Positions 7,501-56,946 of a stretch of 64,000 nucleotides of DNA are shown piece after piece. A model generated the notes under the pieces. The model had not been told where the DNA came from and ran no database searches. It saw only the letters and a list, made by a program, of their open reading frames with translations. The first letter of the stretch is position 1. Every line of letters starts with the position of its first letter. Origin of the DNA: an uncultured Candidatus Saccharibacteria bacterium (GTDB taxonomy: Bacteria; Patescibacteriota; Minisyncoccia; Phycocordibacterales; UBA918). The position numbers and the translations under genes are program-made. The stretch spans positions 34,334-98,333 of the forward strand of contig CAYXYJ010000001.1 of assembly GCA_964469295.1 (NCBI GenBank), given 5' to 3'.

Positions 7501-10500
7501 GGCAATATTTGTTGTATTGTTACCATTAGTAATATTTATTGAATCATACATATCCCAATCATCTGTAGCACTTCCTACTGGCGTCCATACAGCGACCATA
7601 TCGCACGTTGTTACTTTCGGTCCAAATTCTAATCGGTACGTTCGTGATACTGATGTGGCATAGCCTTCGTTACTAATACCAATACGTAAACGAATTGGAG
7701 TATTGGCAGAATGATTGGTTAGTGGAGTATTTTCCATACCAAGCGTAGCTGACGTCGCTCCAGTTTCATTCCCGTTATCGTTACGCCAGTGATAATTCGT
7801 CTGGGTAATGATTGAACCGGATAAAGTAGTTGTGCCTGTTAAGGTTATCGATTCTGACGGTGACACAGATCCACTTGATACCACCACATCATTGGTTGGT
7901 GACTGTATACCAATATGAATCGTTTCCCCATTGTGAGCACCGGCTTCCACATCAAAAACCGCATAAATACACATGGTGGTAGTGGTACTAATACCCACCG
8001 AACCCGAAAACGTCGACGTTCCATTGGGCCCAGAAAAACCATCAGCGTCGGTAGTGCCAAATTGTGACTCACTGCCACTATATGATTCACTGGTACAGTC
8101 GTATGGTGCAGTAGTGTCGAGGTCGTAGCGGAGTTTTATGTTCTTTAGGTTGGTGTTGGCGTTGATGGTACCATCTTCGGCGATGGTGATATTCGAAACG
8201 GTTCTTGTGCTTACATTTTCTTTTATGACAAATTTTCCACCAACATAGGCATTGGTTGTTGGAACAATGAGTGACGATACTTGTGTACCGGTAGCCGCCA
8301 CCGATACATCAGCCGCAATCGTCGCACTCGGGTACCGGTCATACACAGGCAATGCTTGACCATTGTCAGTCAAGCGAAAACAATATGTCGTTCCTTCGTG
8401 TGCACTCGTCGATGCAACAATAGAAAATTCTAATTCAACAAAATTTGTGCTGGTTAATGTTAATGATCCAGTTTCTGACGATGTGTCACGGATACCATCA
8501 TTTGGTGTTAAAAACGTAGTGTTTTCGTCAGTCACCCCCCCGTTCCCAACCGCAATATTGGTAGTGTTGTTGCCGTTGGTCACAAACGATGAATTATACA
8601 TATTCCATGCGTCATTGGTCGCATTCACATCAATCCAAGACGCCGCGGCTTCACAAGTTGGAGCGGCTGTAGCATATTCCAAACGAAAACGAGTTGTGGT
8701 GGCAGTAATCGAACCTTCATTTGAAACCTGTACACGTAGCCGTCGTGGCGAGTTTGCCAGTAATGTTGATAAATCAGTATCTTGTACCCCACCAGTGACA
8801 GAAGTCGCGCCGGTTTCATTCCCGTCATCATTTCGCCAATGATAATGAGTTTGTGTAAACTTACTGTTTTTAATTACAGTGCTTGAAGCTATTTGAACCG
8901 CCGTAATCGGCATGACGGTTTGTCCACCAGTCACCACTACATCGTTATTTGGTGATTCTATAGTAATAGACAGCGTATCGCCATCAACGGCTGTCTTTGA
9001 TACATCTACAACTGCATAGACACACATGCTTTGGGTTGGAGAAATACTTACTAATCCCGAAAACGTCGACGTTCCATTGGACCCAGAAAAACCATCAGCG
9101 TCGGTAGTGCCAAATTGTGACTCACTGCCACTATATGATTCACTGGTACAGTCGTATGGTGCAGTAGTGTCGAGGTCGTAGCGGAGTTTTATGTTCTTTA
9201 GGTTGGTGTTGGCGTTGACGGTGCCTCGTTCGGTAACGGTAATTGTTGTGACATTGCGACTCGCTTGACTTTCGCGTATCGCATATTGACCACCAACATA
9301 CACATTGGAAGAGCTTGCGATGACCGTGCTGGTGGCGGTGCCGTTAGCGTACACTTTTACGGCCGGAGCAATATCAGCAATCGTATCACCGAACATATCA
9401 TCCGGCGACGGGTCATACCATGAGATAAAAATACGTTCATCGCTCATGGTGTTCATATCTAATCCACGAAAGTCTCCCGCTGTACTATTTACTGGACCTT
9501 GAGCCGTTGACCATGACGACATTGCGGATGTCGATGTCGACCAGTAGACATTACCGGTAGTAGCAGTGGCAGGCGTAGTGCGAAGTACATAACCAACGTA
9601 AATATTGTTGGTATTCGTATCCATTGATACTGCCACCATCGTTAATCCTCTTGAAGCAATATTTGTAAAAACATCAGCAGTATTTGACCACGCGTTTGAA
9701 GAATATTTTGCTGTTCTAATGTCATGATCAAGAGTGGTGAATTGATCATTATCGGCAGCATATACCAAATACACATCACCAGAGACAGGATCAACCGTTG
9801 CCGCCATACCAGTGTCGTATGTCGCATTTTCTATAGCGTTGGCATCAAATGTTGTCCAAAGTCCAGACCAACTTGCACCGTTCCAAACCCGAGATCTCAT
9901 GTCATCAGCAGACGTATCTCGATTGATAATCATCACTTTACCACCAAGCAACGGTACGAGTAAATTCCAATCATTGGTCACATCCAAAAAGGCACTTCCC
10001 GCTTCAGTCCAATTTGCAGTATTGTTACAGGTTGTAGAACAATGAACCACAAACGCGTCAGATGCGTCAGCGGTGGCAATAAGTACATCACCGGTAGTAC
10101 TTTTCGTCATTGTGATGTTATTGGTTCCAACTGCCAACGTGGGCACTTGTCCAGAATTGGTCGTGGCATTTACTGGTGACGACCCCAACCATAAAGTATC
10201 GCTTGTTGTATCCAAACGATTGTAATACAAACTATCAGCTGCAGCTGACGTTTCCATAGTGGCAATATGGATATAGTTTCCGCTATCACCTGGCGTCCAC
10301 TGATCATACCAAACCACCATACTGCCACAGTCCGTACGAGCGTCCACAGTAACAGCGCTATTCCAACTTGTACCTCCGGTAGTAGTTTTACTATAAACAC
10401 ATGACCCGTTACTATCCCGATAGAATTTATACCCCACGGTATCAGAAACAAACACGGTTTGTGAACCACCAAAAAAATAGGAGTTGGCATCGGTGCTTGT

Positions 10501-10644
10501 TGTGGCATCTATGGTAACTTGCGCGGCTTCAACTATGACTGGACTAAATAAATATTGTAAAAAACCCCACTGCGATAAAAAAATTATCACAATCAAAAAG
10601 CCAGTTAATCCTTTACAGGCAAAAAGCGCTGGACACCTCCACAT
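4495..10644 (-). CDS. giant secreted surface protein (2049 aa): N-terminal BNR/Asp-box-like propeller region, two tandem ~351-aa modules, C-terminal A-type anchoring-like domain
   Basis: Signal peptide FLIVIIFLSQWGFLQYLF. The N-terminal region has Asp-box-like motifs (KTTTGGTSWNS, SNAWSNT, STSAMSSWST). A tandem duplicated module is present (NANTNLKNIKLRYDLDTTAPYDCTSESYSGSESQFGTTDADGFSG... then YHWRNDDGNETGATS...LRLRIGISNEG...YRLEFG...YCFRLT). The C-terminus ...SAQPAGDYETEIVYIALPVY matches the A1/A2 C-termini. Confidence 0.75.
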   Translation of the reverse strand: MWRCPALFACKGLTGFLIVIIFLSQWGFLQYLFSPVIVEAAQVTIDATTSTDANSYFFGGSQTVFVSDTVGYKFYRDSNGSCVYSKTTTGGTSWNSAVTVDARTDCGSMVVWYDQWTPGDSGNYIHIATMETSAAADSLYYNRLDTTSDTLWLGSSPVNATTNSGQVPTLAVGTNNITMTKSTTGDVLIATADASDAFVVHCSTTCNNTANWTEAGSAFLDVTNDWNLLVPLLGGKVMIINRDTSADDMRSRVWNGASWSGLWTTFDANAIENATYDTGMAATVDPVSGDVYLVYAADNDQFTTLDHDIRTAKYSSNAWSNTADVFTNIASRGLTMVAVSMDTNTNNIYVGYVLRTTPATATTGNVYWSTSTSAMSSWSTAQGPVNSTAGDFRGLDMNTMSDERIFISWYDPSPDDMFGDTIADIAPAVKVYANGTATSTVIASSSNVYVGGQYAIRESQASRNVTTITVTERGTVNANTNLKNIKLRYDLDTTAPYDCTSESYSGSESQFGTTDADGFSGSNGTSTFSGLVSISPTQSMCVYAVVDVSKTAVDGDTLSITIESPNNDVVVTGGQTVMPITAVQIASSTVIKNSKFTQTHYHWRNDDGNETGATSVTGGVQDTDLSTLLANSPRRLRVQVSNEGSITATTTRFRLEYATAAPTCEAAASWIDVNATNDAWNMYNSSFVTNGNNTTNIAVGNGGVTDENTTFLTPNDGIRDTSSETGSLTLTSTNFVELEFSIVASTSAHEGTTYCFRLTDNGQALPVYDRYPSATIAADVSVAATGTQVSSLIVPTTNAYVGGKFVIKENVSTRTVSNITIAEDGTINANTNLKNIKLRYDLDTTAPYDCTSESYSGSESQFGTTDADGFSGPNGTSTFSGSVGISTTTTMCIYAVFDVEAGAHNGETIHIGIQSPTNDVVVSSGSVSPSESITLTGTTTLSGSIITQTNYHWRNDNGNETGATSATLGMENTPLTNHSANTPIRLRIGISNEGYATSVSRTYRLEFGPKVTTCDMVAVWTPVGSATDDWDMYDSINITNGNNTTNIANGNGGITDENVNFLVSNAGVRDTTSTTTALVLATNEYTEFEFSITSTNITLVDSAYCFRLTGGGEMLPQYTNYAEIRTAPKRDFKVQQGVAVVTGTSTTLVAGVDYVAPSSTSTAFVRITDTHFTGAGKVTAGGGAQNADDTTAYISQSNLLTSFTISRPTTAINNTRVTWEIVEFIADPGTDNEMKVLGTGTMSLASASTSATGTTVSGVTDDADVVVFITGIQNRNTGRNFFYASQVTTNWDANNNLPTFLRGSTGAIVDVSYAVVEYSGINWNVQRIEHTYASSTITETEAMNPVNSLERTFIHAQKRISNLSNVNNFGHEVWLSSIGAVSFQLESAATTPSGHTSVAWVIENMQTSAGAMVTSREKLTIPSSNSEPYVLSQSIIDPVSATDNTSIFATSRVVGANSNFPLVFAGARITSTSTYEVWRSEASADMVFRSEIVEWPTSGLAVRQNYYRLYADNNTVTPTDPWPPGVTDLGENSPITVTDSPLGENEHVRLRMTLRVANATLPSGLYVFRLQYGLRTTSCATVGSWTNLGDAGSGELWRGYAATGTTDGVSIGSNPPNPGELLISVSDRVGSLIEDGTSPSNPYPVDAGEDVEYEWFVEQNGAAEKSVYCFRMVHADGTPLDGYFNYPQIRTAGFTPQTKNWRFYDDAQNETPATAMANEIVAPTEVQNGNVIALRVTVGEQKHVRGIDTKFSLQYDEDPNFTHPTTLVASSSCTATSTWCYADGGGQENATITTKVLSDADTCVSAVGSGCGTHNRSAVYAAGHTHNAGANAEYAFYLKHAAARAGAVYYFRLYDVYENLPVPAASGEVYPSLVAETPKLSFTVSGLPSGTSTAGVTTTVSTTPTAIAFGSIAPNTNVYAAHRIGITTNATDGYRIYTYARQQLINSYGVSIPSVTGSNAIPVGWSTGCTASATGCVGYHSTDATLLNGSTRFSPLDSYAGLHTALAEIMYSPIPGNESHDMLYRVLVRSAQPAGDYETEIVYIALPVY
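8003..8166. repeat. 164-bp near-identical direct repeat, copy 2 (inside the 2049-aa gene)
   Basis: Compared by eye with 9056..9219. It is identical except for one G/A difference (gggccc vs ggaccc, giving FSGPNG vs FSGSNG). The spacing is 1053 nt, equal to 351 codons. Confidence 0.8.
9056..9219. repeat. 164-bp near-identical direct repeat, copy 1 (inside the 2049-aa gene)
   Basis: Partner of 8003..8166. The flanking module homology is only ~60% at the amino-acid level, so this core looks recently homogenised. Confidence 0.8.
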
Positions 10645-12513: not shown

Positions 12514-13251
12514 TTAATACGCTAGTTTTGTTAACAAAATCGAAAAATCTCTGAAATTCATGACTCCGTCATCATTAAAATCGTACACGGTTGAATGTTT
12601 TGTCCAAGCTGCCAAAAAAGCGCTCACATCAGCCAGTGAGACCTTGCCATCAGTAGTAATATCAAATTGGGTATTTACGGCCGTAATAATTGTATCGTTT
12701 TGATCATTGGTGTGTTTTACTTCAGCCGTTAAAAGACCAACATCTTTGTCAGCCAATTCTGTTCCTCGACCATCACCGGCTAATAATGATACCTTTTTAA
12801 TGGTAAAAACAGCTGAATCAAGTGAATCTGATACCACTTTCAGTGAAGCGATTTTATGCTTTCCGACAAATCCTTTACGGTACGTACCTCCTTCAAAATA
12901 AGCAACATGATCAGTCACAACTGGATCTTTTGTCCATAAGGTAATGACTGATTCACCTTTATCGATAGATTGTACGACTACCGAATTGGGGATGTTGATT
13001 TCTAAATTAACAGCATTTACCGGTTCTTTGGCGAATACATAAATATTCACCGTATATGACTGACCAACAAGTTGTTTGGTGCTGGGCACCTCAATAATAA
13101 CTCGAGTTTCAGCGTTACTTTGCAATACAGCTGCCAAACCTGAAGCAGCCAAAATGAAGAGAAGCCAAGAAAAGGTAAACCGTACGGTTGCTGTACGATT
13201 AGGATAAAAATTTTGAAAATACCGCTTTATCCAAGTGACCGCACGGTTCAT
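12514..13251 (-). CDS. cohesin-like domain protein with C-terminal dockerin
   Basis: 245 aa. After an N-terminal TM there is a cohesin-like beta domain (VIIEVPSTKQLVGQSYTVNIYVFAKEPVNAVNLEINIPNSVVVQSIDKGESVITLW...). The C-terminal part is a tandem EF-hand-like dockerin (DITTDGKVSLADVSAFLAAW...DFNDDGVMNFRDFSILLTKL). Confidence 0.6.
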   Translation of the reverse strand: MNRAVTWIKRYFQNFYPNRTATVRFTFSWLLFILAASGLAAVLQSNAETRVIIEVPSTKQLVGQSYTVNIYVFAKEPVNAVNLEINIPNSVVVQSIDKGESVITLWTKDPVVTDHVAYFEGGTYRKGFVGKHKIASLKVVSDSLDSAVFTIKKVSLLAGDGRGTELADKDVGLLTAEVKHTNDQNDTIITAVNTQFDITTDGKVSLADVSAFLAAWTKHSTVYDFNDDGVMNFRDFSILLTKLAY

Positions 13252-13934
13252 ATTGAAGTTAAATCTGCGCGTAAGTTTTCATTTTGCTTTGTCAAAAAGG
13301 TCATTTGATCACGAATATCCTGTACTTCAGTTAATGTAGCCTTGATTTCTGGTGACGTCGCCACTTTCCCTGACAGTAACGCTTCAATAATTCTGCCTTG
13401 ATGCAGAACGAGTGCATTGAAATGTTCTGCCAACAACATTTCATTATCAGCAATTTGCTGCCACTTTGTTACCTGCATTTCATGTTCAGTTTGACGTCCT
13501 GGAACAATACCTTCATAGAGAGCAACGTATTCTTGATACACCGACACTTCGCGCAACAACCGAGCGGCCATGACCGCTTTGCGGTCAGCGAAAAACCGAC
13601 CACATTTATAAAACAATGAATCAACCCGTTCTAAATCAGCTCTTGATAGACCATTAGATAATTGACCCAATAATTCATCGAATTGCTTTCGTTCTTCAAT
13701 AGCGCAATCGACAATGATTTTTTCAGTCACCGTATCAGCACCATTTTGTTTGGTTAAATCGGCCACTGTTGTAACCTCTCGTTCTTGATTAAGCAAGGCT
13801 AACTCTAGGGTGATTTGCGTTCTCTCAAGGGCTTCGGCCACTTCCCTGTCGGCATACCACATCATTAGAGCAAATACCATAATAACGGCTACGGCACCAA
13901 TAACATAATTTTTATGATTTTTGATTGTCTGCAT
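13248..13934 (-). CDS. membrane-anchored coiled-coil protein
   Basis: 228 aa. TM VIGAVAVIMVFALMMWYA is followed by a heptad-rich Q/E/L region. A 4-nt ATGA overlap with the downstream gene suggests translational coupling. Confidence 0.4.
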   Translation of the reverse strand: MQTIKNHKNYVIGAVAVIMVFALMMWYADREVAEALERTQITLELALLNQEREVTTVADLTKQNGADTVTEKIIVDCAIEERKQFDELLGQLSNGLSRADLERVDSLFYKCGRFFADRKAVMAARLLREVSVYQEYVALYEGIVPGRQTEHEMQVTKWQQIADNEMLLAEHFNALVLHQGRIIEALLSGKVATSPEIKATLTEVQDIRDQMTFLTKQNENLRADLTSI

Positions 13935-13935
13935 A

Positions 13936-15669
13936 TTATTCTACAAGATCAGTAACATCTTTCACTTCTTTATTTACACGTTGTTTTAGTGTGTTTAAAC
14001 CATCAGTCACTAATGTGATAATTTTTTCTTCACTGGTAGTTAATTTGTTAGTTTTTCTTGACTCAGATAATTCAACGACATACTCGTGTAAAGTTTTTTG
14101 TAATCTAGTAAATTCCGCACTAAGTACCGAAGACACTTCAACAGCTTCTTTATCAACATACTGACGCAAGCGTCGTACTCGATACCAGGTATACATGGTC
14201 ACGATAACCAACAATGCCAATAAGGCGATGAGTGGGATAAATACCGTTAAGAACGAAATAACATATGAACCAACTCGTAGTATACCACTTTGTTCGACTA
14301 ATAGTTTTACTGGCGCAGATACAACACTTTGTGCCCCATATTGATCTTTGGCTGAAACCGTAAGTGTATACACACCAGTAGCAAAAGCGTTATCAGGAAT
14401 AAATCTAAATTGACCGGATTCATCAGCAGTCACGGTATAGTTTTTTGGTTCAACACCAGTTTCAAAAACAGTAATAGTCACTTCAGCTCCACCGCGAGTT
14501 TTACCGGTTATGGCGGGAATAATACCGGGCGGAATACGGACGGGTACATCCAGTAGCACCGGAGCATCAAATGCCTCAATCGTAATTGACAGGTTGGCAA
14601 AAGCGCTATTGCCAGCTTCGTCAATCGCTTCAATTACAAGGTTATGGGCTCCTGGTGCCAGATCAGTTACCGTTAGAGAATTTTTGTTGTCGGGATTAGT
14701 AAACTCTTTTATTTCTCCACCATCAACTTGCACTTTGAATGTTTTAATTGGCGCACCATTATTGCTCGTCGTGGTTGCAATAATTGTTTGGCTTGGATTG
14801 GCTAAGTTATTGTCAGGAGCAAGACTAACCGAAAAATTTTCCGGCGCACTGCCATCCACGGCCAAACGATAATGCGTCACCTTACCCCAACCGTCAGCAT
14901 TTTTAAATTGAATATGAAGATACGAAATACCCTCATCCAAATCACGAAGTGTCAGTGATGAGATTGGCGTGTCGTATACTTTGGTGGGAATAGCGGTCGG
15001 GTTACTATCTAAACTGGTACGCACCGCCGTCACTCCGGCTGGTACTGTCCACGTTAACTCAGCGGTGGTACTTTTTGACCAACCATCAGCCGGATGAGTG
15101 ACTGAAGTAACTTTGGGAGCGGTCGGTGTATTCGCTGATGGCACAAATTCCACGACAACTTCTGGCGCGGGGGCCGAACTGGCAGCGGTGACGGTGTAGG
15201 TTCCGCTATTCATATTTGTTAGCACATTTGTACCACGACCATCAGCAGCAAGCACTGAACCACCTGACATCGTAATCCGCGCTGTTCCTGCTACTAACGT
15301 ACGGAACGTTACTGTCATAATGGTACCAGCGGCACCAGTATATCCGCTTGGCGAACCACCACTAAAAGTGATAGTGCCAGCACTATTAGAAAACGTGGGT
15401 TCAGTAGTCCATAGTGAAAAAATAGAACTCCCGCGAGAAACTGCTACAACCGATAATTGGGACGGATCAAATGATACGGTGCCGTCAGCAGCGTTAATTG
15501 ATTTTCCACTCGTATTAACTAAGACCGACACGGTAAATGTGTTACCAATCGTATAGACTCCGGTACTAGGTGACACCGACACTGACGCAGCGTTCACTGA
15601 TACACCAACCCCCAAACCAGCAAATATCACCACGAAAAATACTATTGTTTTATACAAAGAACGAATCAT
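13936..15669 (-). CDS. membrane-anchored cohesin-like scaffold protein with Ig/FN3-like domains
   Basis: 577 aa. The N-terminal domain AASVSVSPSTGVYTIGNTFTVSVLVNTSGKSINAADGTVSFDPSQLSVVAVSRGSSIFSLWTTEPTFSNSAGTITFSGGSP... matches the cohesin pattern. The C-terminus has a TM (FLTVFIPLIALLALLVIVTMYTWY) and a coiled-coil tail. It is a paralog of 50054..51616 (shared SLWTTEPTFSNSAGTITF). Confidence 0.6.
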   Translation of the reverse strand: MIRSLYKTIVFFVVIFAGLGVGVSVNAASVSVSPSTGVYTIGNTFTVSVLVNTSGKSINAADGTVSFDPSQLSVVAVSRGSSIFSLWTTEPTFSNSAGTITFSGGSPSGYTGAAGTIMTVTFRTLVAGTARITMSGGSVLAADGRGTNVLTNMNSGTYTVTAASSAPAPEVVVEFVPSANTPTAPKVTSVTHPADGWSKSTTAELTWTVPAGVTAVRTSLDSNPTAIPTKVYDTPISSLTLRDLDEGISYLHIQFKNADGWGKVTHYRLAVDGSAPENFSVSLAPDNNLANPSQTIIATTTSNNGAPIKTFKVQVDGGEIKEFTNPDNKNSLTVTDLAPGAHNLVIEAIDEAGNSAFANLSITIEAFDAPVLLDVPVRIPPGIIPAITGKTRGGAEVTITVFETGVEPKNYTVTADESGQFRFIPDNAFATGVYTLTVSAKDQYGAQSVVSAPVKLLVEQSGILRVGSYVISFLTVFIPLIALLALLVIVTMYTWYRVRRLRQYVDKEAVEVSSVLSAEFTRLQKTLHEYVVELSESRKTNKLTTSEEKIITLVTDGLNTLKQRVNKEVKDVTDLVE

Positions 15670-16694
15670 ATAATTTCATTTATCTCGTCGGTGATAGTTG
15701 TCGTCGCTTGTTTTTTCAATCTTCGACGTCGCCAGAAAATCACACTAATAATAATTAGAATAACAACAAACAAACCACCAGCTCCAATAATCAAAAAGTT
15801 GGTTGCGTTTTTATACCATGGCATAGAAAGGCCTTGTGGGGCTAACGTGGCCACATATTCATTTCCAGCTTTATCAATAGCTCGAACTCGAATGATACTT
15901 CGTAATGTCTGATCTTTAAGCACGTATGGACTACGCACTTCAGCCCATGGAGCAGTCGCCGCTCCAAATGAAAACCAATTAGCTTCTTCAGTGGATTCTT
16001 CTAGCACCTCGTAGTGACTAATGCCAGTTTGTTTGTCGGTAGTGTTAAAAACAATGAAATATTTATTATCAAACGCATAATTGTCTTGCTCAAGTGAAAT
16101 ATCAAATGGTTCTGGAGTGATGGTATCTTCGGCTACAGTATCGCGCCAACCATCAATAATATCCGAGCCAACGAAACTATTAAGTGTTAGCGTGGTGCCA
16201 AGTGTAGTCATAGTTGCCGCTGTACCAAAACCATCGTTTAAATATGCCGTTGTTTCTGGGGCAAAATTAACAGCAGCCATACCAGCCGATTCACCGCCGC
16301 CGATTTGCAATCCGGGTGAGCGAAATACGATTTCAGCCACCACATTAGTCAAACGAGGGTCACCTTCTATTCGTCTGCAATAACCATTGGGAATACCGCC
16401 AGCAAAAGTGATGGTACGATGTTCTTTATCAATCTTTGGATTTTCAACCCACACTGGGAAAATTGACCGACCAATTGACACATCAACGGGAACGATACTT
16501 GCATCATAGGTTACCACACCGTCAATCGCATTAATACATTCACCTTCAGCTTCATTAGTGTCCACTCGTAACGCTATCGTTACCGCATCACCACGATTTA
16601 ATGTGGCGGTTGGCGGATCCATATATAATGTCGCGGCCATTACTGGTGCACAAGACACAGACCAAAGAACTGCTCCAATTAAAAATTTCCACAT
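15666..16694 (-). CDS. cohesin-like domain protein with C-terminal TM anchor
   Basis: 342 aa. Signal peptide WSVSCAPVMAATLY. The domain ...DAVTIALRVDTNEAEGECINAIDGVVTYDASIVPVDVSIGRSIFPVWVENP...ITFAGGIPNGY fits the cohesin pattern. C-terminal TM LIIGAGGLFVVILIIISVIFW is followed by RRRRLKK. A 4-nt overlap with the upstream gene is present. Confidence 0.5.
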   Translation of the reverse strand: MWKFLIGAVLWSVSCAPVMAATLYMDPPTATLNRGDAVTIALRVDTNEAEGECINAIDGVVTYDASIVPVDVSIGRSIFPVWVENPKIDKEHRTITFAGGIPNGYCRRIEGDPRLTNVVAEIVFRSPGLQIGGGESAGMAAVNFAPETTAYLNDGFGTAATMTTLGTTLTLNSFVGSDIIDGWRDTVAEDTITPEPFDISLEQDNYAFDNKYFIVFNTTDKQTGISHYEVLEESTEEANWFSFGAATAPWAEVRSPYVLKDQTLRSIIRVRAIDKAGNEYVATLAPQGLSMPWYKNATNFLIIGAGGLFVVILIIISVIFWRRRRLKKQATTTITDEINEII

Positions 16695-16749: not shown

Positions 16750-16784
16750 AGCAAAAACCCTACTCGTGGTGGGAGATAGGGTTA
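16750..16784 (-). terminator. rho-independent terminator downstream of A1
   Basis: The minus-strand transcript reads AACCCTAtCTCccaccacGAGTAGGGTTTTTGCTTTG. That is an ~8-bp stem with one bulge and a 7-nt loop, followed by a U5 tract. Confidence 0.5.
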
Positions 16785-16818
16785 TTTGCATATTACTCCA
16801 AGCTTGGACCAATATTCT

Positions 16819-18024
16819 TTAGAACACTGGTGTTGCTACGTATGTCAGCGTAGCGGTATAGTCGTCTCCGGCTTCTTGTAGATCTGAGATTTCAACTTTG
16901 TATCCAACGCGCGTTCGACCGATATTTGCAGTCGTTCCGTCTGATGGACCATCATGTCTGAATACCTCAACCGGTGTAGTTGAAGCAGAAACAAATAATT
17001 GTCCTGTTCCTCCCACATCAAACGGATCATCAAGATTTTCCGTTAACGTCTCATCTTCAGTTGTCAGACCCCAATGTCCCCAAGTGTCTTCATCACTAAT
17101 AGATTCTGAAGGTTGTACCCACGTCACAGGTGTCGTGGTATATGCTCCATCAATAAATCCATCAATATCAGCACCCGTTGATGACAATAATTGTTGGTCT
17201 ACAGCCACCGTAACAACGAATCCATAGCTGGCGTTAGTTGCTACTGATAGCTGTTGAGCTGCGGTTGAAGCAGTCCCAGCTTCCAAGACTCCAAATGGAA
17301 TCGCCGTAGCGGTGGTATCGCCGGTGATTAATTCGCTATTTACATAGCCACCCGCGTTTACTCCATCAACGGTAAAAGTGAAACTGGTATCAACTGAAGC
17401 GGTGACAACGACTGGTGACACGATCGCGACTCGAGTAGCTCCAGTATCTGTTGCTCCGGCTTCAATGTTAATCTCATATGAACCAACCGTAGGATTAGTA
17501 ATCTGATTTACACCAGAAGCACCAAAAGTGGCATTTGTTCCAATTTCAATGGTTGTTGTCCCATTAACTGGCAGTGAGCCCCCATCACCAGGACAGAAGG
17601 TCAGAATGATTTCATCAGACAAAGCTGAAAAACCAACTTGTTCTGATCCGGTACAGTCAGCAGCCACATCAAGATCGGTAGCGTCATCAGCAATATCAAC
17701 ATCTTCATAGTCCACCGCACCAAGTACGAATGGTCCATCGGAAAAGTCGATAGTGATAGAATCCCCTTCTGCCACTCCTGTTGGAGTAACAAATGTGATC
17801 GTGTGATTGGCACCAACTGATGGTGCTGAATCTGATAATGTATCACTTACTAATTTGACATTTGCGGCTTCCGCAAAGCGAAATGTAGGCACTCCGAGTG
17901 TCCACATAAGGACAGTGAAAGTAACTACAAAAGCCACAGCTTGGAGTAGACCGAACGTGGTTTTCGTTCTACTCATGTAACTACTACGTTGTATTAGCCT
18001 GACACTGCCGTATCTGAAAAACAT
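16819..18024 (-). CDS. A-family secreted surface protein A1 (S-layer-like/WxL-like candidate) with conserved C-terminal motif ...AGDDYTATLTYVATPVF
   Basis: 401 aa with a signal anchor (LLQAVAFVVTFTVLMWTLGVPTF). It is acidic and T/G/A/V/S-rich. It shares long blocks with 56947..58074 (GTNATFG..G.N.ITNPT.GSYE, TSFTFTV, WGHWGLT, C-terminal LQEAGDDY..(L)TY(V/I)ATP.F). It has its own terminator and a 445-nt upstream leader. Confidence 0.7.
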   Translation of the reverse strand: MFFRYGSVRLIQRSSYMSRTKTTFGLLQAVAFVVTFTVLMWTLGVPTFRFAEAANVKLVSDTLSDSAPSVGANHTITFVTPTGVAEGDSITIDFSDGPFVLGAVDYEDVDIADDATDLDVAADCTGSEQVGFSALSDEIILTFCPGDGGSLPVNGTTTIEIGTNATFGASGVNQITNPTVGSYEINIEAGATDTGATRVAIVSPVVVTASVDTSFTFTVDGVNAGGYVNSELITGDTTATAIPFGVLEAGTASTAAQQLSVATNASYGFVVTVAVDQQLLSSTGADIDGFIDGAYTTTPVTWVQPSESISDEDTWGHWGLTTEDETLTENLDDPFDVGGTGQLFVSASTTPVEVFRHDGPSDGTTANIGRTRVGYKVEISDLQEAGDDYTATLTYVATPVF

Positions 18025-18296
18025 TTACAGCAACGCACAGCGCGACCCTGCATCGTTCGTGAGTGTGGTCTCCACCCCACTTCCCAACTATTGAATGAAA
18101 GGCATATCAAGTCTGTAACACCGGCTGAGTGCCCTCTTACGCGACGAGAGCAGCGTCACTAAAATTTGACACCTCCAAACTTGATACAAATTTATTGTAC
18201 ATGGTAATGATTGCTAAGTCTGTCGGTTATACACAAAAGATTGCAGCCATTATCACTCGCTCACAGAAAAATAATATTCTGTTGATATGTTGGCAC

Positions 18297-18364
18297 CTAT
18301 CCCTTCACTACATATTCGTAATGTAGTCGCTTGGCAGGGAATGGAGAATATGTAGTGAAGGGAT
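18297..18364. promoter_or_regulatory. 22-bp perfect inverted repeat (cctatcccttcactacatattc / gaatatgtagtgaagggatagg) with a 24-nt loop in the long A1 upstream region
   Basis: Seen directly in the sequence. No U-tract follows on either strand, so it is unlikely to be a simple intrinsic terminator. It may be a leader-RNA structure or a protein-binding palindrome. Confidence 0.45.
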
Positions 18365-18468
18365 AGGAACCGATATGGTACATCAATCAAAGTGAAAATA
18401 AATATATCCTGCAATGAAGATATTCAACTTAGAATACTGAATCAATCGACGATAAATAATAGTAAAAT

Positions 18469-19593
18469 TTATCCAGTCCAGTTAAAAAGCAAAATTGAAA
18501 AATCTTCCAACCCAACTTTTCCATTACCATTTATATCTGCCGGCGGATTAGAATCCCCACCATTTGTTTGCCACCAAAATATTAAAATTGAAAAGTCGGT
18601 CAGGTTAATTTTTCCGTCACGACTTAAATCGCTTGGAGTAGCCGGCGCTCCATCCACACCGACAAACAGTTGCACAATCGAACTATACCCACTTTGCGTT
18701 AACAACGGCGCCGTTCCGGTCACTGATCGAGCTTTTAACGCATACTGGGCGTTAGCTAATCCTGTTGTATTAAGGGTGTAAGAAAATTTTCCACTCGCGT
18801 CACTGGTTGCTCGTTCTATCCTCGCACTACTACCAATTTGTAATTCAATTTGTGCATTCGGGATACCTTGACCGGCGATAGTCACCGGGCTTCCCGCTGC
18901 AATTTTTGCTGGTGTTACTGCTATCGTCGGCGGCAAAATCAGGCCAGACAAATTTGTGATGGCCCCTTGTGTAACGTCAAACGTATTATTTAAGGTAATT
19001 GATCGACGCCCCGCTGAATCGTTTGCCCACACTCCTAATGTTGCCGTTCCCGGCGAAACTTCCGTGGCAAATTCAAAACGACCGTTACTTCCCGCCCGGA
19101 CAGAGCCGACTGAACGCGAATCGATTAGAAAGTTAATTTGTTGACCAGGGTATCCCAATCCAGTTACACTAACTGATGTATCACCTAAATCTTTAGTGCT
19201 TCCACCGCGCCCACCACTTCCACCGCCACTACTTCCACCACCACCAGAACCAGCTGGTTCGACAGTACAGGTGGCCGAACAAAAGTCACCACTATCATTA
19301 TTAGTATCATCGCACTCTTCTCCATAAAGAGTTTGCAAAATACCATCTCCGCAATAGGGTCCAAAATCGCAGGTAGCTGTACATTGTCGGCCAGCAATGG
19401 TTGTACTGTAGAGACCCGTTTCTCCTAATACATCACATTCTTCGCCAGCATCAACCAATTCATTACCACAAATACTTAAATTAATGACCGTATCAATATT
19501 CTGAGTTGATGTGGCAATCAATTGAGCATTCACGGTTGTAGCTGACAAAGCGAGCGCGAGTAATGCACTTATGGTCAGCAAATACACACGCAT
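18469..19593 (-). CDS. secreted protein with Myxococcus-type cysteine-rich repeats, Gly/Ser linker, Ig-like region and C-terminal dockerin
   Basis: 374 aa with a signal peptide. The Cys-rich repeats are CGNELVDAGEECD... and CGDGILQTLYGEECDDTNNDSGDFCSATC. A linker GSGGGGSSGGGSGGRGGS follows. The C-terminal dockerin is SDLSRDGKINLTDFSILIFWW...DINGNGKVGLEDFSILLFNWTG. Confidence 0.6.
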   Translation of the reverse strand: MRVYLLTISALLALALSATTVNAQLIATSTQNIDTVINLSICGNELVDAGEECDVLGETGLYSTTIAGRQCTATCDFGPYCGDGILQTLYGEECDDTNNDSGDFCSATCTVEPAGSGGGGSSGGGSGGRGGSTKDLGDTSVSVTGLGYPGQQINFLIDSRSVGSVRAGSNGRFEFATEVSPGTATLGVWANDSAGRRSITLNNTFDVTQGAITNLSGLILPPTIAVTPAKIAAGSPVTIAGQGIPNAQIELQIGSSARIERATSDASGKFSYTLNTTGLANAQYALKARSVTGTAPLLTQSGYSSIVQLFVGVDGAPATPSDLSRDGKINLTDFSILIFWWQTNGGDSNPPADINGNGKVGLEDFSILLFNWTG

Positions 19594-19594: not shown

Positions 19595-20551
19595 TTATTT
19601 TTGTCTTGACCGTCGAGAACGACGATTATGAATAATAAAGAGCGTTGTTACGATTAATGCAAACACTGGCAGTGTTACAGAAATTTTATGGGCCAAAGAT
19701 AAACCAATAAACCCAAAACCAGCCGTTTGTAATGTGCCATACGGCAAGATACTAAGATTTAATTCACCTTCTTGTTTTACATCTTCACCATTATAGATTA
19801 CATAGCGAGCAATATAGCTACCGCTAGGTAAATTAGTAGGAATTTCCGCTACCACTTCTTCAGTTGCATATGGAGCAATCTTTTTGATACGGCCGAGGTG
19901 ACTGGTATCTTGTAACAAAACAGCACCAGAACGGTCATAAATTTTAAACTGTACGCGTGAAGGCGCAATATCAACGTTACCAGTATTTTCTAATAACATT
20001 GAGAACTGAATTTTTCCTGGGAAGTATAGCCAACCAAATTTATGCCCTTCATTTAAATCACTTACTGTAATTTTACGAACACGAAAATCCTCAATCACTT
20101 TATCAATAACAGACAAATCAATATCAACTTGTGCTCCTAAAGAAATACTAACCACACCTTCAGACACCTGATCGTTTGCCGGCATAGTTCTGATACGAAT
20201 TTTGCCACTGTAATCACCGAATTCAGCGTCACTCGGCACTTTTACTCGTACCGTCATTGGCACCTTCTGTTCACCACGTGGCATTGGAATAGATGTTCCT
20301 TCCACAATTTCAATCCAATCCAAAATCTCAGGAGCATCAACTACCACTTCAGCAGCCAATGCTTCATTTGGGTCACCACGTACTAAAAGAATTTGCTGTT
20401 CGTAAACACTGTTACGAGTCAAACTCGTATTACGCACATACGGCGGTGTAATACCAAAACTAGCAAATGACGTAGCGGGAAAAAGTATTAGTGTAACAAG
20501 CACCAAAAAAAACAATGAACGTATATAACGGGCTCTAAAACGTATCAACAT
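19595..20551 (-). CDS. B-family paralog B3 (DUF916-like surface protein with C-terminal TM anchor)
   Basis: 318 aa. Signal peptide LFFLVLVTLILFPATSFASFG. Two beta domains are followed by C-terminal TM TLPVFALIVTTLFIIH and tail NRRSRRSRQK. Its stop is 2 nt from the next gene's start. Confidence 0.55.
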   Translation of the reverse strand: MLIRFRARYIRSLFFLVLVTLILFPATSFASFGITPPYVRNTSLTRNSVYEQQILLVRGDPNEALAAEVVVDAPEILDWIEIVEGTSIPMPRGEQKVPMTVRVKVPSDAEFGDYSGKIRIRTMPANDQVSEGVVSISLGAQVDIDLSVIDKVIEDFRVRKITVSDLNEGHKFGWLYFPGKIQFSMLLENTGNVDIAPSRVQFKIYDRSGAVLLQDTSHLGRIKKIAPYATEEVVAEIPTNLPSGSYIARYVIYNGEDVKQEGELNLSILPYGTLQTAGFGFIGLSLAHKISVTLPVFALIVTTLFIIHNRRSRRSRQK

Positions 20552-20690: not shown

Positions 20691-22565
20691 TTACCAGTTG
20701 GCAGGTGCAGAAATCGCTCCCGTGAAGGTGTTGCGTCCAGTATATGAACCAGCAAGGCTAATGGTTCCTGGAACAGCAATACCCCAATATGTTACACCCG
20801 ATGTTGGTGTGGTTGTACTTGTTGGTTTAAGAATGCGAATGTCCAAAGTTGCTGGTGTTGAGGTAGGCTGTAATTGTGTCCCCGAAGCAAAGGCTACTGC
20901 TGATGTAGCATATCGCTGTTGATCTTGTGGAATAGTTGATGAAGCAGAAACTGGACATGGATTAAGTGGCGAGTATGTTGTACACATTGAGTCGCCTCCC
21001 AGTAATTGATTAAGCCCAGTGTTACCAACAGCGCGCATGGTTGTGGTTGCGGTTAGGTTGTTCATTTGGTTACCCGGCTCAAGTTGGTCGTACGCAATTA
21101 ACTGAGTCACTAAATCAATTGCTACTAATGACAATAGTTCGACAGGACTGGTAGAAGTTGACATCGAACCAGTAGCGTTATTATTATCAACTCCAGCAAT
21201 ACCAGCTACCCAATGTTGCGCACTAAACGGTGTACCCGAAACTGTTGGATCAGCGATAAACCATAATGGGAAAGTACAGTTATAAATGATTGTGTCATCA
21301 GTAGCACCAGTACAAGACGTTGTTGACGCCGTACATGAAAGGTTCCAGTTAGAAGCTCCAACACCGCTTGGGTAACAGTTGTTGGCGTTATAACTACCAG
21401 CAGTACCATTACATGTTGAGGTACCAATATTACTTCGAAATACTGAAGCAACGTACCCAGTGATTTCATCAGCCGCTCCTCCACCAACCGCATCACAACT
21501 GTTAGCATCAGCAACAGTAAACTGCAATGAGAAACCGGTTGTTTGTCCGGCAGGGGTAGTTAAAATAATATCATTACCACCGTTAAGACTAATGGTACCT
21601 CCAGCCACTGTTGGCGCTACATTACTAACAGTAAACGTAACATTTCCACCTTGCGCACCACCAGTTGCTTCATGACCATGTTGGTCGTATAAATACGCAT
21701 AGGCATTATAAGTGGTGTCTTGCACAATTGCCGGTAACGTATAGGTAGCCGAAGCATTAGCGAGCACACCAATAGTCGTGGTAGCCAAAACATCAAGTGG
21801 GTTACAAGTATTGGTGGTTGTACTGTATGTAGGGTTACTACAGACGACTAAGAAAATATTGTCTTCAGCATCAACAACGTCAGGGTCAGTAGAGGTTGAT
21901 CCAAAGACCAGGATACCTCCTGGATTTACTGGACCATTGTTGCCAAACGTTGTAAATACTGGTCGACGGTTAACGTTAAATGGTGACGTGTTAGTTGCTG
22001 CTGTTCCTTGTGAATAAGACGTACTGCAGCGTGGGTTTACTGGATCATCGTCACACACCCAAGCATACCAAGCATTTGATTCGGCAAATGGAGCTACTTC
22101 AGTCGTGGTGGTCGCCGCTCTTGCTTGTGTACCACTGATGGTACTGGTTGACACGGCATACCGTGTACCAGCACTACAGATTGGCGCTGCCGTTCCAAGC
22201 GTTGAAGTGGACATTTGCGCCGTTGGTGTCGCTGAAGTGCTGCAGATAATAAGAAAGTAAGGCGCGCCGTTAGCATCAGTGGCGGTTCCTACCCAAGAAA
22301 TCGTATCACCAGAATTTGTCGGTGTGGACGTTGACGATTCATATTGTTCACGCCCCTCTTGACCGACCACCCATACTGGCGGGGTGTTCAATACTGTCAA
22401 TGTGGTGGTAGCAGTACTGGTCGCTTCGGCTTTTTGCAATTCAGTTTTACCGATGTTAAAGATAAAGATAAAGGCAAAAATTAATACCCCTGTTAAAGCT
22501 GTTAATATGGTAATTTTTCCCGCTTGTTTCATGTAGTGCGGGGCTACGTATTTGTTGTACAACAT
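20691..22565 (-). CDS. Thr/Ser/Cys-rich membrane-anchored surface protein
   Basis: 624 aa. N-terminal anchor ITILTALTGVLIFAFIFIF. The rest is very T/S/A/N-rich with many Cys and no recognisable catalytic motif. It is not a type IV pilin (no G-FTLIE). Confidence 0.45.
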   Translation of the reverse strand: MLYNKYVAPHYMKQAGKITILTALTGVLIFAFIFIFNIGKTELQKAEATSTATTTLTVLNTPPVWVVGQEGREQYESSTSTPTNSGDTISWVGTATDANGAPYFLIICSTSATPTAQMSTSTLGTAAPICSAGTRYAVSTSTISGTQARAATTTTEVAPFAESNAWYAWVCDDDPVNPRCSTSYSQGTAATNTSPFNVNRRPVFTTFGNNGPVNPGGILVFGSTSTDPDVVDAEDNIFLVVCSNPTYSTTTNTCNPLDVLATTTIGVLANASATYTLPAIVQDTTYNAYAYLYDQHGHEATGGAQGGNVTFTVSNVAPTVAGGTISLNGGNDIILTTPAGQTTGFSLQFTVADANSCDAVGGGAADEITGYVASVFRSNIGTSTCNGTAGSYNANNCYPSGVGASNWNLSCTASTTSCTGATDDTIIYNCTFPLWFIADPTVSGTPFSAQHWVAGIAGVDNNNATGSMSTSTSPVELLSLVAIDLVTQLIAYDQLEPGNQMNNLTATTTMRAVGNTGLNQLLGGDSMCTTYSPLNPCPVSASSTIPQDQQRYATSAVAFASGTQLQPTSTPATLDIRILKPTSTTTPTSGVTYWGIAVPGTISLAGSYTGRNTFTGAISAPANW

Positions 22566-56836: not shown

Positions 56837-56879
56837 CAGTATATCACTTGTCTGTCATCATAGATTACTCCTATAAACA

Positions 56880-56916: not shown

Positions 56917-56946
56917 TCTAATATTCAATTTTAGAACAGTGAATCT

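What the first reader, a model, noticed from the sequence alone, without database searches (positions are those of the whole stretch)
16750..18468. A-family genes look like independently transcribed, highly expressed structural genes: own strong terminators and long structured upstream regions
A1 is followed by a hairpin + U5 terminator (16750..16784). A2 is followed by a 16-bp perfect-stem terminator (56880..56916). Both are preceded by unusually long non-coding regions (445 nt and ~300 nt) in an otherwise tightly packed region. The A1 leader contains a 22-bp perfect inverted repeat (18297..18364). Long stabilising 5' leaders plus dedicated terminators are hallmarks of S-layer and major surface protein genes. 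A proteins are acidic, Cys-poor and T/G/A/V-rich, like S-layer proteins.
Basis: inference. Interest (0 to 1): 0.5.

Follow-up and report, generated by a model that had tools for sequence, protein, structure and literature searches.

The report
Pilus subunit genes with structured leaders
The two "A" genes most likely encode the building blocks of a recently described kind of surface filament (Pam-type pilus) in an ultra-small Patescibacteria bacterium, not an S-layer, and each is a stand-alone gene with its own promoter, a long conserved folded RNA leader and a strong terminator.

Summary
Both terminators are real and conserved: 64 of 71 related loci have one. The long upstream gaps are real too, about 285-350 nt in nearly all relatives. 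The proteins are about 35 kDa, pI 4.05, Cys-poor and rich in T/S/G/A/V.

Two corrections. A1 starts at M17 (CDS 16819..17976), so its upstream gap is 492 nt. The 22-bp inverted repeat is real but unique to this genome. It lies about 110 nt upstream of the conserved A1 promoter, so it is not in the leader.

The leaders are structured, but for other reasons. The A2-type leader carries an about 80-nt hairpin element that begins at the predicted transcription start. It has strong covariation (25 of 27 pairs), occurs once per locus in 42 loci, and has no Rfam match. The A1 leader has its own covarying 5' stem.

High expression is supported for A2 by codon bias. In 33 of 33 orthologues NNC codon use exceeds that of flanking genes. 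The bias is weak for A1.

The S-layer reading is not supported. The C-terminal domain is homologous to the Pam pilin C-terminal domain (NF058581). The conserved neighbour is a membrane-anchored WxLIP-like two-Ig-domain protein. A 2049-aa protein ends in the same pilin domain, and a 642-aa protein joins the A N-terminal domain to a dockerin.

The parts
56947..58074 (-). A2 coding sequence, 375 aa: signal peptide, N-terminal beta-sandwich domain, linker strand, C-terminal Ig-like domain. Proposed major Pam-like pilin.
   Evidence: AF2 model pLDDT 94.8. Family members match NF058581. Codon bias.
56879..56917 (-). A2 intrinsic terminator: A-tract, 17-bp perfect stem, U-tract.
   Evidence: dG -28.9. 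Conserved with compensatory changes in orthologues.
58220..58266 (-). A2 promoter region: conserved GTTATCAACA box (58257..58266), -35 GAGACA (58243..58248), 17-nt spacer, -10 TATACT (58220..58225). The transcription start is inferred near 58213.
   Evidence: Alignment of orthologous upstream regions. A -10-like hexamer lies 6-9 nt upstream of P1 in most of 38 loci. The start site is an inference.
58130..58212 (-). Conserved leader RNA element: long hairpin P1-P2-P2b-P3, with GGCUGA (58180..58185) in the apical region and CUCCAC (58147..58152) in a 3' internal loop. P1 arms are 58201..58210 and 58132..58141.
   Evidence: Covariance model R1 gives 76.8 bits, the only hit in the window. Covariation. 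Individual folds. No Rfam match.
58075..58131 (-). Rest of the A2 5' UTR: a hairpin P4 that varies in sequence but is conserved in structure (58096..58131), the nearly invariant GUUAUUUA (58088..58095), and an A/U-rich stretch without a Shine-Dalgarno sequence up to the AUG.
   Evidence: Present in 39 of 39 loci. No Shine-Dalgarno sequences anywhere in the window.
16819..17976 (-). A1 coding sequence, 385 aa after correcting the start to M17. Paralogue of A2 (53% identity). Proposed minor or alternative pilin.
   Evidence: NF058581 E 4.5e-6. Weak codon bias.
16751..16789 (-). A1 intrinsic terminator. The loop CCCACCAC is conserved among A1 orthologues.
17977..18238 (-). A1 promoter and 5' UTR: conserved TTTTGTGTATAA (18227..18238), -10 TACAAT (18194..18199), inferred transcription start near 18187. 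The 5'-terminal helix pairs 18176..18187 with 18104..18115. Also a GGAGG hairpin (18152..18176), GUGGGGUGGAGACCAC (18065..18080) and GGCUAAUACAACGUAG just before the AUG.
   Evidence: RNAalifold: 37 pairs, 21 with compensatory changes, from 8 sequences.
18287..18376 (.). Palindromic element specific to this genome: 22-bp perfect core at 18296-18317 / 18346-18367, with a 28-nt spacer. It sits between the upstream dockerin gene and the A1 promoter and is not part of the conserved leader.
55745..56846 (-). Conserved partner gene (probable start ATG at 56806) with its own extended -10 box TGATATACT (56838..56846). The product has a signal peptide, two Ig-like domains of WxLIP type and a C-terminal transmembrane helix. 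Candidate membrane-anchored chaperone or assembly factor.
   Evidence: Synteny. PF06030 matched by 25 of 28 family members. PDB EfmWxLIP1 E 5e-5. Promoter box.
52273..54201 (-). 642-aa protein: A-type N-terminal domain (and possibly the linker), then Big_6 Ig domain and dockerin, with no pilin C-terminal domain. Candidate base or anchor subunit.
   Evidence: hhalign probability 97.9%, E 4e-13. hmmsearch E 6e-18. Pfam Dockerin_1 and Big_6.
4495..10644 (-). 2049-aa protein whose last about 171 aa (about 4498..5010) form an A-type linker strand plus C-terminal domain. Candidate tip adhesin.
   Evidence: hhalign probability 99.1%, E 1.2e-18, profile columns 194-379.
19595..20551 (-). 318-aa membrane-anchored protein, a weak paralogue of the WxLIP-like partner.
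   Evidence: BLASTP E 4e-6. hmmsearch E 2.4e-8.

Best explanation
A1 and A2 are shaft subunits (pilins) of a Pam-like pilus in a Paceibacteria (Parcubacteria) bacterium. Pam pili are extracellular filaments built by donor-strand exchange and were described in 2026 in the CPR bacterium Ca. Mycosynbacter amalyticus.

[quoted passage not shown] Each gene has conserved promoter boxes, a long 5' UTR whose structure is kept by covariation, and a canonical intrinsic terminator.

Inferred: each gene is transcribed on its own. The 5' UTR begins, at or within a few nucleotides of the transcription start, with a long stem. It ends in an unstructured A/U-rich stretch without a Shine-Dalgarno sequence. The 5'-terminal stem and the tight 3' hairpin would protect the mRNA ends and give a stable, abundant message. 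The invariant unpaired motifs (GGCUGA, CUCCAC, GUUAUUUA) suggest that a protein or RNA also reads the leader.

A2 is the major, highly expressed subunit. A1 is a minor or alternative one.

Inferred, lower confidence: subunits are handled by WxLIP-like chaperones anchored in the membrane. The filament may be capped by the 2049-aa protein that ends in the same pilin domain. It may be held at its base by the subunit that fuses the A N-terminal domain to a dockerin, docked on membrane-anchored cohesin proteins.
For: Protein.
- 58 of 102 diverse family members match NF058581 CPR_Pam_pilin_C, best E 1.5e-10. Several matches cover model positions 2-148 of 148. A1 itself scores E 4.5e-6.
- The partner gene family is WxLIP-like: two Ig domains plus a transmembrane helix. 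This is the same layout as PamC and PamD. WxLIP is predicted to complete its partner's beta-sandwich with a strand.
- A modules recur in the 2049-aa and 642-aa proteins.

Expression units.
- Terminators are present in 64 of 71 loci.
- Upstream gaps of about 300 nt are conserved.
- The leader element has 88% of cells paired against 64% in shuffles, 25 of 27 pairs with compensatory changes, and a covariation score of 0.597 against 0.181. None of 500 shuffles reached these values, and slid controls scored 0.05-0.09.
- There is exactly one covariance-model hit per locus, always upstream of the gene.
- Individual folds have a mean z of -4.2.
- Hairpin P4 and GUUAUUUA are present in 39 of 39 loci.
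- The A1 leader has 37 predicted pairs, 21 with compensatory changes.
- Other genes in the window have -10 boxes only 7-12 nt from the ATG, so these leaders are exceptional.

Expression level.
- NNC codon use is 0.55 in A2-type genes against 0.34 in flanking genes, higher in 33 of 33 orthologues, p = 2e-10, without higher GC3.
- A2 has Nc 40.8.
- PamA and PamB are the 2nd and 9th most abundant proteins in M. amalyticus.
Against: - The NF058581 scores are all below NCBI's 55-bit cut-off. A2 itself gives no hit.
- No solved Pam structure was available for comparison.
- A monomer model cannot show donor-strand exchange.
- A2 has no Cys and A1 has only two, whereas PamA and PamB have 2-3 Cys pairs.
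- The published Pam neighbourhood (ATP synthase, PamR, PamT) was not seen here.
- No transcript, transcription-start or protein-abundance data exist for this organism.
- The covariation counts come from an alignment fitted to the model. RNAalifold on plain MAFFT alignments recovered only P1.
- Stabilisation is an inference by analogy. The conserved unpaired motifs could mean regulation instead.
Confidence: 0.6

Rival explanations
1. A1 and A2 are S-layer proteins that form a two-dimensional lattice on the cell.
Against: There is no SLH, CWB2 or other wall-anchoring domain. No S-layer relative was found by sequence or fold. The C-terminal domain is homologous to a pilin domain. At 35 kDa the proteins are small for an S-layer protein. 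The same modules are fused to a giant adhesin-like protein and to a dockerin, which fits a filament with a tip and a base.
Confidence: 0.1
2. The conserved leader element is mainly a regulatory switch and not a passive stabiliser. It could be a riboswitch, or a binding site for a protein or RNA that couples pilin synthesis to assembly state or host contact. This is compatible with the pilin identity.
For: Invariant unpaired motifs (GGCUGA, CUCCAC, GUUAUUUA) sit within helices that vary freely in sequence. The element is confined to one gene family and occurs once per locus. A1-type leaders carry the reverse complements UCAGCC and GUGGAG.
Against: No ligand pocket or alternative terminator/antiterminator pairing was found. 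P4 is not followed by a U-tract. There is no Rfam relative. There are no expression data.
Confidence: 0.3
3. The upstream regions encode an independent small RNA or a small protein unrelated to A1 and A2.
For: Several short ORFs of 20-37 aa exist in both gaps.
Against: These ORFs mostly start with TTG or GTG and overlap helices whose changes are compensatory. Length differences between orthologues are not multiples of three. No terminator separates the element from the ATG. The promoter-to-element and element-to-ATG geometry is fixed in 39-42 loci.
Confidence: 0.05
4. A proteins are secreted Ig-fold adhesins or hydrophobin-like coat proteins that do not polymerise by strand exchange.
For: The fold matches are generic Ig-like adhesin domains, and BslA/YweA rank at the top.
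Against: The linker strand and the C-terminal domain are the most conserved parts, as in Pam pilins. There is full-length homology to the Pam C-terminal domain model. The chaperone-like partner is conserved.
Confidence: 0.1
5. The 22-bp inverted repeat is a recently acquired palindromic element. It may act as a terminator-like barrier or 3' stabiliser for the upstream dockerin gene, or as an operator, and it is not part of the A1 mRNA.
For: It is unique in the window, absent from 89 loci and from the metagenome scan. It sits in about 190 nt that close orthologues lack, upstream of the conserved -10 box. The hairpin is very stable.
Against: No U-tract follows it directly. A non-conserved GATAAT box downstream of the repeat could be a second A1 promoter, and a start further upstream that included the repeat in a longer A1 transcript cannot be excluded.
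Confidence: 0.4

Closest known systems
Pam pili (PamA and PamB) of Ca. Mycosynbacter amalyticus (Troman et al., bioRxiv 10.64898/2026.03.03.709456)
   Same: CPR bacterium. Sec signal peptide. [quoted passage not shown] The linker and C-terminal domain are the most conserved parts. Subunits of 35-55 kDa that are very abundant. Neighbouring two-domain chaperone-like proteins with a C-terminal transmembrane helix.
   Different: A different class: Paceibacteria, whereas Pam pilins were reported mainly in Saccharimonadia and Microgenomatia. Scores to NF058581 fall below its cut-off. Few or no cysteines. No ATP synthase neighbourhood, PamR or PamT was seen. Instead there are a giant protein with the pilin C-terminal domain, an N-terminal-domain-plus-dockerin protein and membrane cohesins. 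The structured leader and the monocistronic layout are not described in that paper.
Chaperone-usher pili (Pap/Fim) of Gram-negative bacteria
   Same: The proposed logic of donor-strand exchange: a tip adhesin carrying a pilin domain, and a terminator or anchor subunit without an acceptor groove.
   Different: No usher and no outer membrane. The subunits have two domains. The candidate chaperones are membrane-anchored. There is no detectable sequence relation.
WxL / WxLIP (DUF916-DUF3324-TM) surface clusters of Lactobacillales (PMC10599100)
   Same: The partner protein family matches PF06030 and the EfmWxLIP1 structure. Two Ig-like domains plus a C-terminal transmembrane helix. WxLIP is predicted to complete its partner's beta-sandwich with a strand.
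   Different: There is no WxL protein here, and the partner is a Pam-like pilin. The window protein scores 24.6 bits against a 27.3-bit cut-off.
Stabilising 5' UTRs of abundant envelope protein mRNAs (E. coli ompA, Lactobacillus slpA/cbsA, B. subtilis aprE). This comparison rests on general knowledge.
   Same: A long untranslated leader with a stem at or near the 5' end, a monocistronic gene and a strong terminator.
   Different: There is no sequence or structure relation and no Shine-Dalgarno sequence. This leader has invariant unpaired motifs and a second hairpin. Stabilisation has not been tested.
S-layer proteins
   Same: Acidic, Cys-poor, probably abundant secreted surface proteins.
   Different: No anchoring domain and no homology or fold match. 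The modules are shared with filament-type proteins.

Membership tests
Pam pilin (NCBIfam NF058581 CPR_Pam_pilin_C; PamA/PamB) | C-terminal domain matches the Pam pilin C-terminal domain model at or above the curated cut-off of 55 bits | tested here: inconclusive
   A1 scores 26.8 bits, E 4.5e-6, over model positions 2-40. A2 gives no hit. 58 of 102 family members hit at E <= 0.01, best 41.3 bits, and several cover model positions 2-148 of 148. Homology is supported, but every score is below the cut-off.
Pam pilin | Signal peptide, about nine-strand N-terminal beta-sandwich, single linker strand, C-terminal Ig-like domain | tested here: met
   AF2 model pLDDT 94.8: strands between 39 and 182, linker strand 196-202, C-terminal domain 234-373. 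The N-terminal hydrophobic segment ending in AxA was read from the sequence.
Pam pilin | Polymerises by donor-strand exchange into a helical filament | not testable with these tools
   Only monomer prediction is offered, and no solved Pam structure is in the PDB copy.
Pam pilin | Encoded next to PapD-like chaperones that carry a C-terminal transmembrane helix (PamC/PamD) | tested here: inconclusive
   The conserved neighbour has two Ig-like domains and a transmembrane helix and is WxLIP-like. No direct comparison with PamC or PamD was possible.
Pam pilin | Paired cysteines (2-3 pairs) | tested here: not met
   A2 has 0 Cys and A1 has 2.
S-layer protein | Cell-wall or membrane anchoring module (SLH, CWB2 and the like), or homology to a known S-layer protein | tested here: not met
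S-layer protein | Forms a two-dimensional paracrystalline lattice | not testable with these tools
   Needs microscopy.
Intrinsic (Rho-independent) terminator | G+C-rich stem-loop directly followed by a U-tract, just after the stop codon | tested here: met
   A2: 17-bp stem followed by a U-rich tail (GUUUAUAG). A1: stem followed by UUUUUGCUUUG. Found in 64 of 71 loci, with covarying stems.
Any Rfam 15 RNA family | Covariance-model match at the gathering score | tested here: not met
   No hit in the window at gathering thresholds. Only chance-level hits in the leaders; the miRNA-precursor matches are just the inverted-repeat hairpin.
WxLIP (PF06030), for the partner gene | PF06030 match at the gathering score of 27.3 bits, plus a C-terminal transmembrane helix | tested here: inconclusive
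   The window protein scores 24.6 bits. 25 of 28 orthologues hit at E <= 0.01, best 1.8e-9. EfmWxLIP1 E 5e-5. A transmembrane helix is present.

The most novel reading that the evidence does not exclude
The about 140-nt leader is a new class of cis-regulatory RNA, specific to Pam-like pilin genes across Paceibacteria, that senses a protein, RNA or small molecule. The pilus it controls is modular in an undescribed way: capped by giant adhesins that end in a pilin acceptor domain, and tethered to the cell through a dockerin-cohesin pair instead of a transmembrane or sortase anchor.
Probability: 0.2. Interest if true: 0.8.

Novelty: new variant of a known kind. Interest (0 to 1): 0.55.

Why it matters
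Pam pili were described only in 2026, mainly in Saccharimonadia and Microgenomatia. This window indicates that a very large family of distant relatives sits in Paceibacteria/Parcubacteria: about 2000 clusters at 50% identity. This is one of the largest and least understood CPR groups.

The family comes with a recognisable expression cassette. It also comes with neighbours that suggest how giant surface proteins and cohesin-dockerin pairs are wired into a filament.

The conserved leader is a candidate new RNA motif in organisms where almost nothing is known about gene regulation, and in a genome that otherwise seems to use very short leaders. It gives a concrete handle for finding the major surface filament gene in uncultured Patescibacteria (covariance model plus gene pair). 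It also suggests ways to test how these epibionts control host attachment.

Tried and rejected
- Rfam at gathering and E-value thresholds: nothing relevant.
- PDB sequence searches with A2 and with the family profile: no hits.
- First AF2 model from a shallow alignment: low confidence (pLDDT 65.9), and its Foldseek matches were uninformative. It was replaced by a 102-sequence alignment.
- Foldseek on the good model: only generic two-Ig adhesins with very large rmsd.
- RNAalifold on plain MAFFT alignments: recovered only P1, because P2 is too variable to align by sequence. This was solved with per-sequence folds, a partner-swap control and a covariance model.
- Small ORFs in the leaders: none convincing.
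- Copies of the inverted repeat elsewhere: none in the window, the 89 loci or the metagenome scan. The idea that it is a repeated mobile element therefore has no support, and the idea that it belongs to the conserved leader is rejected.
- A-like C-terminal domain in the 7749-aa and 624-aa proteins: absent. These two share a different C-terminal domain.
- The consensus terminator scan missed the A1 terminator because of its interrupted stem.
- Literature search for direct expression data on this family: only an indirect lead.
Full report
CONTEXT

Every sizeable ORF of at least 120 aa that does not overlap a larger one lies on the minus strand of the window. There are no tRNA genes and no Rfam families. 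Homologues of the A proteins come from MAGs named Parcubacteria, Paceibacteria, Kaiserbacteria and Nomurabacteria. The source is therefore a Patescibacteria (CPR) bacterium of the class Paceibacteria.

A1 is the ORF 16819..18024 and A2 is 56947..58074. They are 53% identical.

CHECKING THE OBSERVATION

Terminators.
- The A2 terminator is a 17-bp perfect stem at 56879..56917, dG -28.9. It is the strongest hairpin-plus-U-tract in the window.
- The A1 terminator at 16751..16789 has an interrupted stem followed by UUUUUGCUUUG, dG -15.5. The simple consensus scan missed it.
- Both are conserved. In 64 of 71 related loci the gene is followed within about 50 nt by an A-tract, a G+C stem and a U-tract, and the stem sequences change in a compensatory way.
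- My own scan is permissive. By my reading of it, only about four of its minus-strand hits are canonical intergenic terminators in the 64 kb.

Upstream gaps.
- They are the two largest in the window (coordinates).
- Orthologues show that A1 starts at M17 (MSRTKTTFGLLQ, ATG at 17976..17974). The A1 gap is therefore 492 nt, not 445.
- An upstream gap of 285-350 nt is found in almost every member of the family, whichever paralogue type.
- For A2 the synteny is fixed: GH18, umuC, an about 300-nt gap, A2, terminator, a 350-aa membrane protein, a 140-aa protein, MgtE.

Inverted repeat.
- It is real: 22 bp, perfect, at 18296-18317 / 18346-18367. No chance matches are expected, dG is -46.5 and z is -8.4.
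- It occurs nowhere else in the window, in none of the 89 fetched loci, and not in the metagenome collection.
- It lies in about 190 nt that the closest A1 orthologues lack. It is about 100 nt upstream of the conserved -10 box TACAAT at 18194..18199.
- It is therefore not evidence for a structured A1 leader.

Composition.

WHAT THE PROTEINS ARE

Pfam gives nothing for A1 or A2. NCBIfam gives A1 a weak hit to NF058581, "CPR_Pam_pilin_C, Pam pilus system pilin subunit".

A 2026 preprint describes this system.
- In the CPR bacterium Ca. Mycosynbacter amalyticus, PamA and PamB are the 2nd and 9th most abundant proteins.
- Each has a signal peptide, a nine-strand N-terminal beta-sandwich, one linker strand and a truncated Ig-like C-terminal domain.
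- They polymerise by inserting the linker strand into the C-terminal domain of the neighbour.
- PapD-like chaperones with a C-terminal transmembrane helix (PamC, PamD) are encoded nearby.

The A family is very large: 2283 hits in one search and 1987 representatives at 50% identity.

Homology to the Pam pilin domain.
- Of 102 diverse members, 58 match NF058581 at E <= 0.01, best 1.5e-10.
- In several members the match covers the whole model (positions 2-148 of 148) over the last about 150 residues.
- These members align full-length with A2. Homology of the C-terminal domain therefore follows by transitivity, although every score is below the curated 55-bit cut-off.

Structure.
- With the deep alignment, AlphaFold2 gives a confident model: pLDDT 94.8, pTM 0.75. 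It has an N-terminal beta-sandwich (39-182), a strand at 196-202 and a C-terminal domain (234-373).
- With a shallow alignment, the segment 182-219 was the only unconfident internal region. It contains the family's most conserved sequence.
- Fold searches return Ig-like pilins and adhesins, BslA/YweA and a protein named TLP (which I take to mean TasA-like). No S-layer protein appears.
- There is no wall-anchoring domain.

Neighbours fit a filament system.
- The gene after A2-type genes is conserved. It encodes a signal peptide, two Ig-like domains and a C-terminal transmembrane helix.
- 25 of 28 orthologues match PF06030 (WxLIP). The profile finds the solved EfmWxLIP1.
- WxLIP proteins are predicted to complete their partner's beta-sandwich with a strand. 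That is chaperone-like, and the layout matches PamC and PamD.
- The window holds three further paralogues of this protein.
- The 642-aa protein 52273..54201 has an A-type N-terminal domain, then an Ig domain and a dockerin, and no pilin C-terminal domain.
- Three membrane-anchored cohesin-like proteins are nearby. Cohesin is confirmed by Pfam only for 13936..15669. The other two (50054..51616 and 15666..16694) are judged from sequence similarity of their N-terminal regions.
- The 2049-aa protein 4495..10644 ends in an A-type linker strand plus C-terminal domain (hhalign 99.1%, E 1.2e-18).
- By the logic of strand-exchange pili, these look like a base or anchor subunit and a tip adhesin. This step is inference.

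THE EXPRESSION CASSETTE

A2 promoter.
- Upstream of A2-type genes, conserved blocks read GTTATCAACA, then 8 nt, -35 (G/A)AGACA, a 17-nt spacer and -10 TATA(C/A)T.
- In most of 38 loci the -10-like hexamer ends 6-9 nt before the first base of a long helix, P1. The inferred transcription start is therefore at or next to the foot of P1, near 58213.

A2 leader element.
- It runs P1 (10-12 bp), then an internal loop on the 3' side holding the invariant (U)CUCCAC, then P2 and P2b, whose sequences vary freely, and finally an apical region with invariant GGCUGA and a U-run.
- Forty-one sequences each fold this way on their own, with mean z -4.2.
- The basal P2 arms pair better with their own partner than with partners from other loci: 5.6 against 4.1 consecutive pairs.
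- A covariance model built from 12 sequences finds exactly one strong hit per locus, always on the gene's strand about 70-150 nt upstream of the start. There are 42 hits at E <= 0.01. In the window the only hit is 58130..58212, at 76.8 bits.
- On that alignment 88% of cells are paired against 64% in shuffles. 25 of 27 pairs show compensatory changes. The covariation score is 0.597 against 0.181 in shuffles and 0.05-0.09 in slid controls.
- This alignment is fitted to the model, which inflates such numbers. The margin is large, and the per-sequence folds are independent of the model.

Rest of the A2 leader.
- After P1 comes a second hairpin, P4, variable in sequence and present in 39 of 39 loci.
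- Then comes the nearly invariant GUUAUUUA, then 21-33 nt of A/U-rich sequence up to the AUG.
- No gene in the window has a Shine-Dalgarno sequence. Most have a -10-like box only 7-12 nt from the start codon. Leaders of about 140 and 210 nt are therefore exceptional here.

A1 leader. A1-type leaders differ in sequence but follow the same plan.
- Conserved TTTTGTGTATAA and TACAAT boxes.
- A 5'-terminal 12-bp helix (18176..18187 with 18104..18115) that covaries.
- A GGAGG-containing hairpin, and a second domain closing near the start codon.
- Overall 37 predicted pairs, 21 with compensatory changes, from only 8 sequences.

Downstream of A2. A conserved extended -10 box (TGnTAnnnT) serves the partner gene. 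The partner is therefore not simply co-transcribed.

No conserved small ORF explains these regions.

EXPRESSION LEVEL

- A2 has one of the lowest effective codon numbers in the window (40.8). It prefers AAC, TTC, TAC, ATC, CGT, GGT and CCA.
- Across 33 distinct A2-type genes, the NNC fraction in pyrimidine-ending two-fold codons is 0.55, against 0.34 in flanking genes. It is higher in 33 of 33, p = 2e-10, and GC3 is not higher.
- A third paralogue type behaves the same way.
- A1-type genes show only a weak trend.
- This is the usual mark of translational selection in highly expressed genes. No direct transcript data were found. One paper on Paceibacteria reports highly expressed secreted proteins with Ig-like and "PGBD" folds, which is only a lead.

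MECHANISM

Shown:
- the two genes have conserved promoter boxes, conserved structured leaders and conserved terminators;
- the proteins are homologous to Pam pilins in their C-terminal domain and share the Pam architecture.

Inferred:
- monocistronic transcription;
- a stem at the 5' end and a tight 3' hairpin that protect the mRNA from end-dependent decay;
- translation initiation on an open A/U-rich region;
- A2 as the major subunit and A1 as the minor one;
- assembly by strand exchange with help from the WxLIP-like proteins;
- possibly a giant tip adhesin and a dockerin-cohesin anchor.

The invariant unpaired leader motifs argue that something reads the RNA in a sequence-specific way, so a regulatory role is a serious rival or addition.

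VERDICT

- What is there is a divergent, Paceibacteria-wide branch of the newly described Pam pilus system. It comes with an undescribed conserved leader RNA and an unusual set of accessory modules.

Noticed in passing
window 4495..10644 (-), C-terminal part about 4498..5010: The 2049-aa surface protein ends in an A-type linker strand plus pilin-like C-terminal domain (hhalign 99.1%, E 1.2e-18). It may be a giant tip adhesin of the same filament.
   Followed up: partly
window 52273..54201 (-); cohesin-like genes 50054..51616, 13936..15669, 15666..16694; dockerin genes 18469..19593, 12514..13251: An A-type N-terminal domain is fused to Ig repeats and a dockerin, next to membrane-anchored cohesin-like proteins. 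This is a cohesin-dockerin set in a CPR genome that might tether surface structures. Cohesin is confirmed by Pfam only for 13936..15669.
   Followed up: partly
window 26756..50005 (-) and 20691..22565 (-): The 7749-aa giant protein and a 624-aa protein share a C-terminal domain of about 190 aa (BLASTP E 8e-16) that is not A-like. Its function is unknown.
   Followed up: partly
window 1874..3535, 3510..4586, 19595..20551, 55745..56836 (all -): There are four WxLIP-like paralogues (two Ig-like domains plus a transmembrane helix) in one 64-kb window. One of them (1874..3535) carries a long extra C-terminal region.
   Followed up: partly
whole window, 30 nt upstream of each start codon: No Shine-Dalgarno sequences were seen anywhere. 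Many genes have a -10-like TAnnnT box only 7-12 nt from the ATG, which suggests leaderless or very short-leader mRNAs as the norm.
   Followed up: no
A1 terminator loop 16765..16772 and A1 leader 18065..18080; loci L051, L056-58, L068, L071, L083, L084, L086: A1-type terminator loops keep the sequence CCCACCAC although the stems covary. A1 leaders carry GUGGGGUGGAGAC, which is partly complementary to it. Some orthologue leaders also contain CUCCCACCAC.
   Followed up: no
A2 leader 58180..58185 and 58147..58152; A1 leader about 18123..18128 and about 18070..18075: The invariant A2-type leader motifs GGCUGA and CUCCAC appear as their reverse complements (UCAGCC, GUGGAG) in A1-type leaders, in the same 5'-to-3' order. 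This is unexplained. It could mean RNA-RNA contact between the two mRNAs, or a shared DNA-binding factor.
   Followed up: no
window 58257..58266 (-), also near 18273..18281 (-): A conserved GTTATCAACA box lies upstream of the -35 region of A2-type promoters. It is one mismatch from the DnaA-box consensus TTATCCACA (from memory). A similar ATATCAACAGAAT follows the inverted repeat upstream of A1.
   Followed up: no
window 58373..59641 and 61753..62184 (-): umuC-like and umuD-like translesion polymerase genes lie upstream of A2, with umuC immediately adjacent. The umuC-A2 adjacency is conserved in many genomes.
   Followed up: no
window 55324..55734 (-): A conserved about 140-aa protein with hydrophobic segments at both ends and a coiled-coil-like middle always follows the WxLIP-like gene. 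It has no family match.
   Followed up: no
window 13248..13934 (-): This 228-aa helical protein has the lowest effective codon number in the window (40.1). It has no family match.
   Followed up: no
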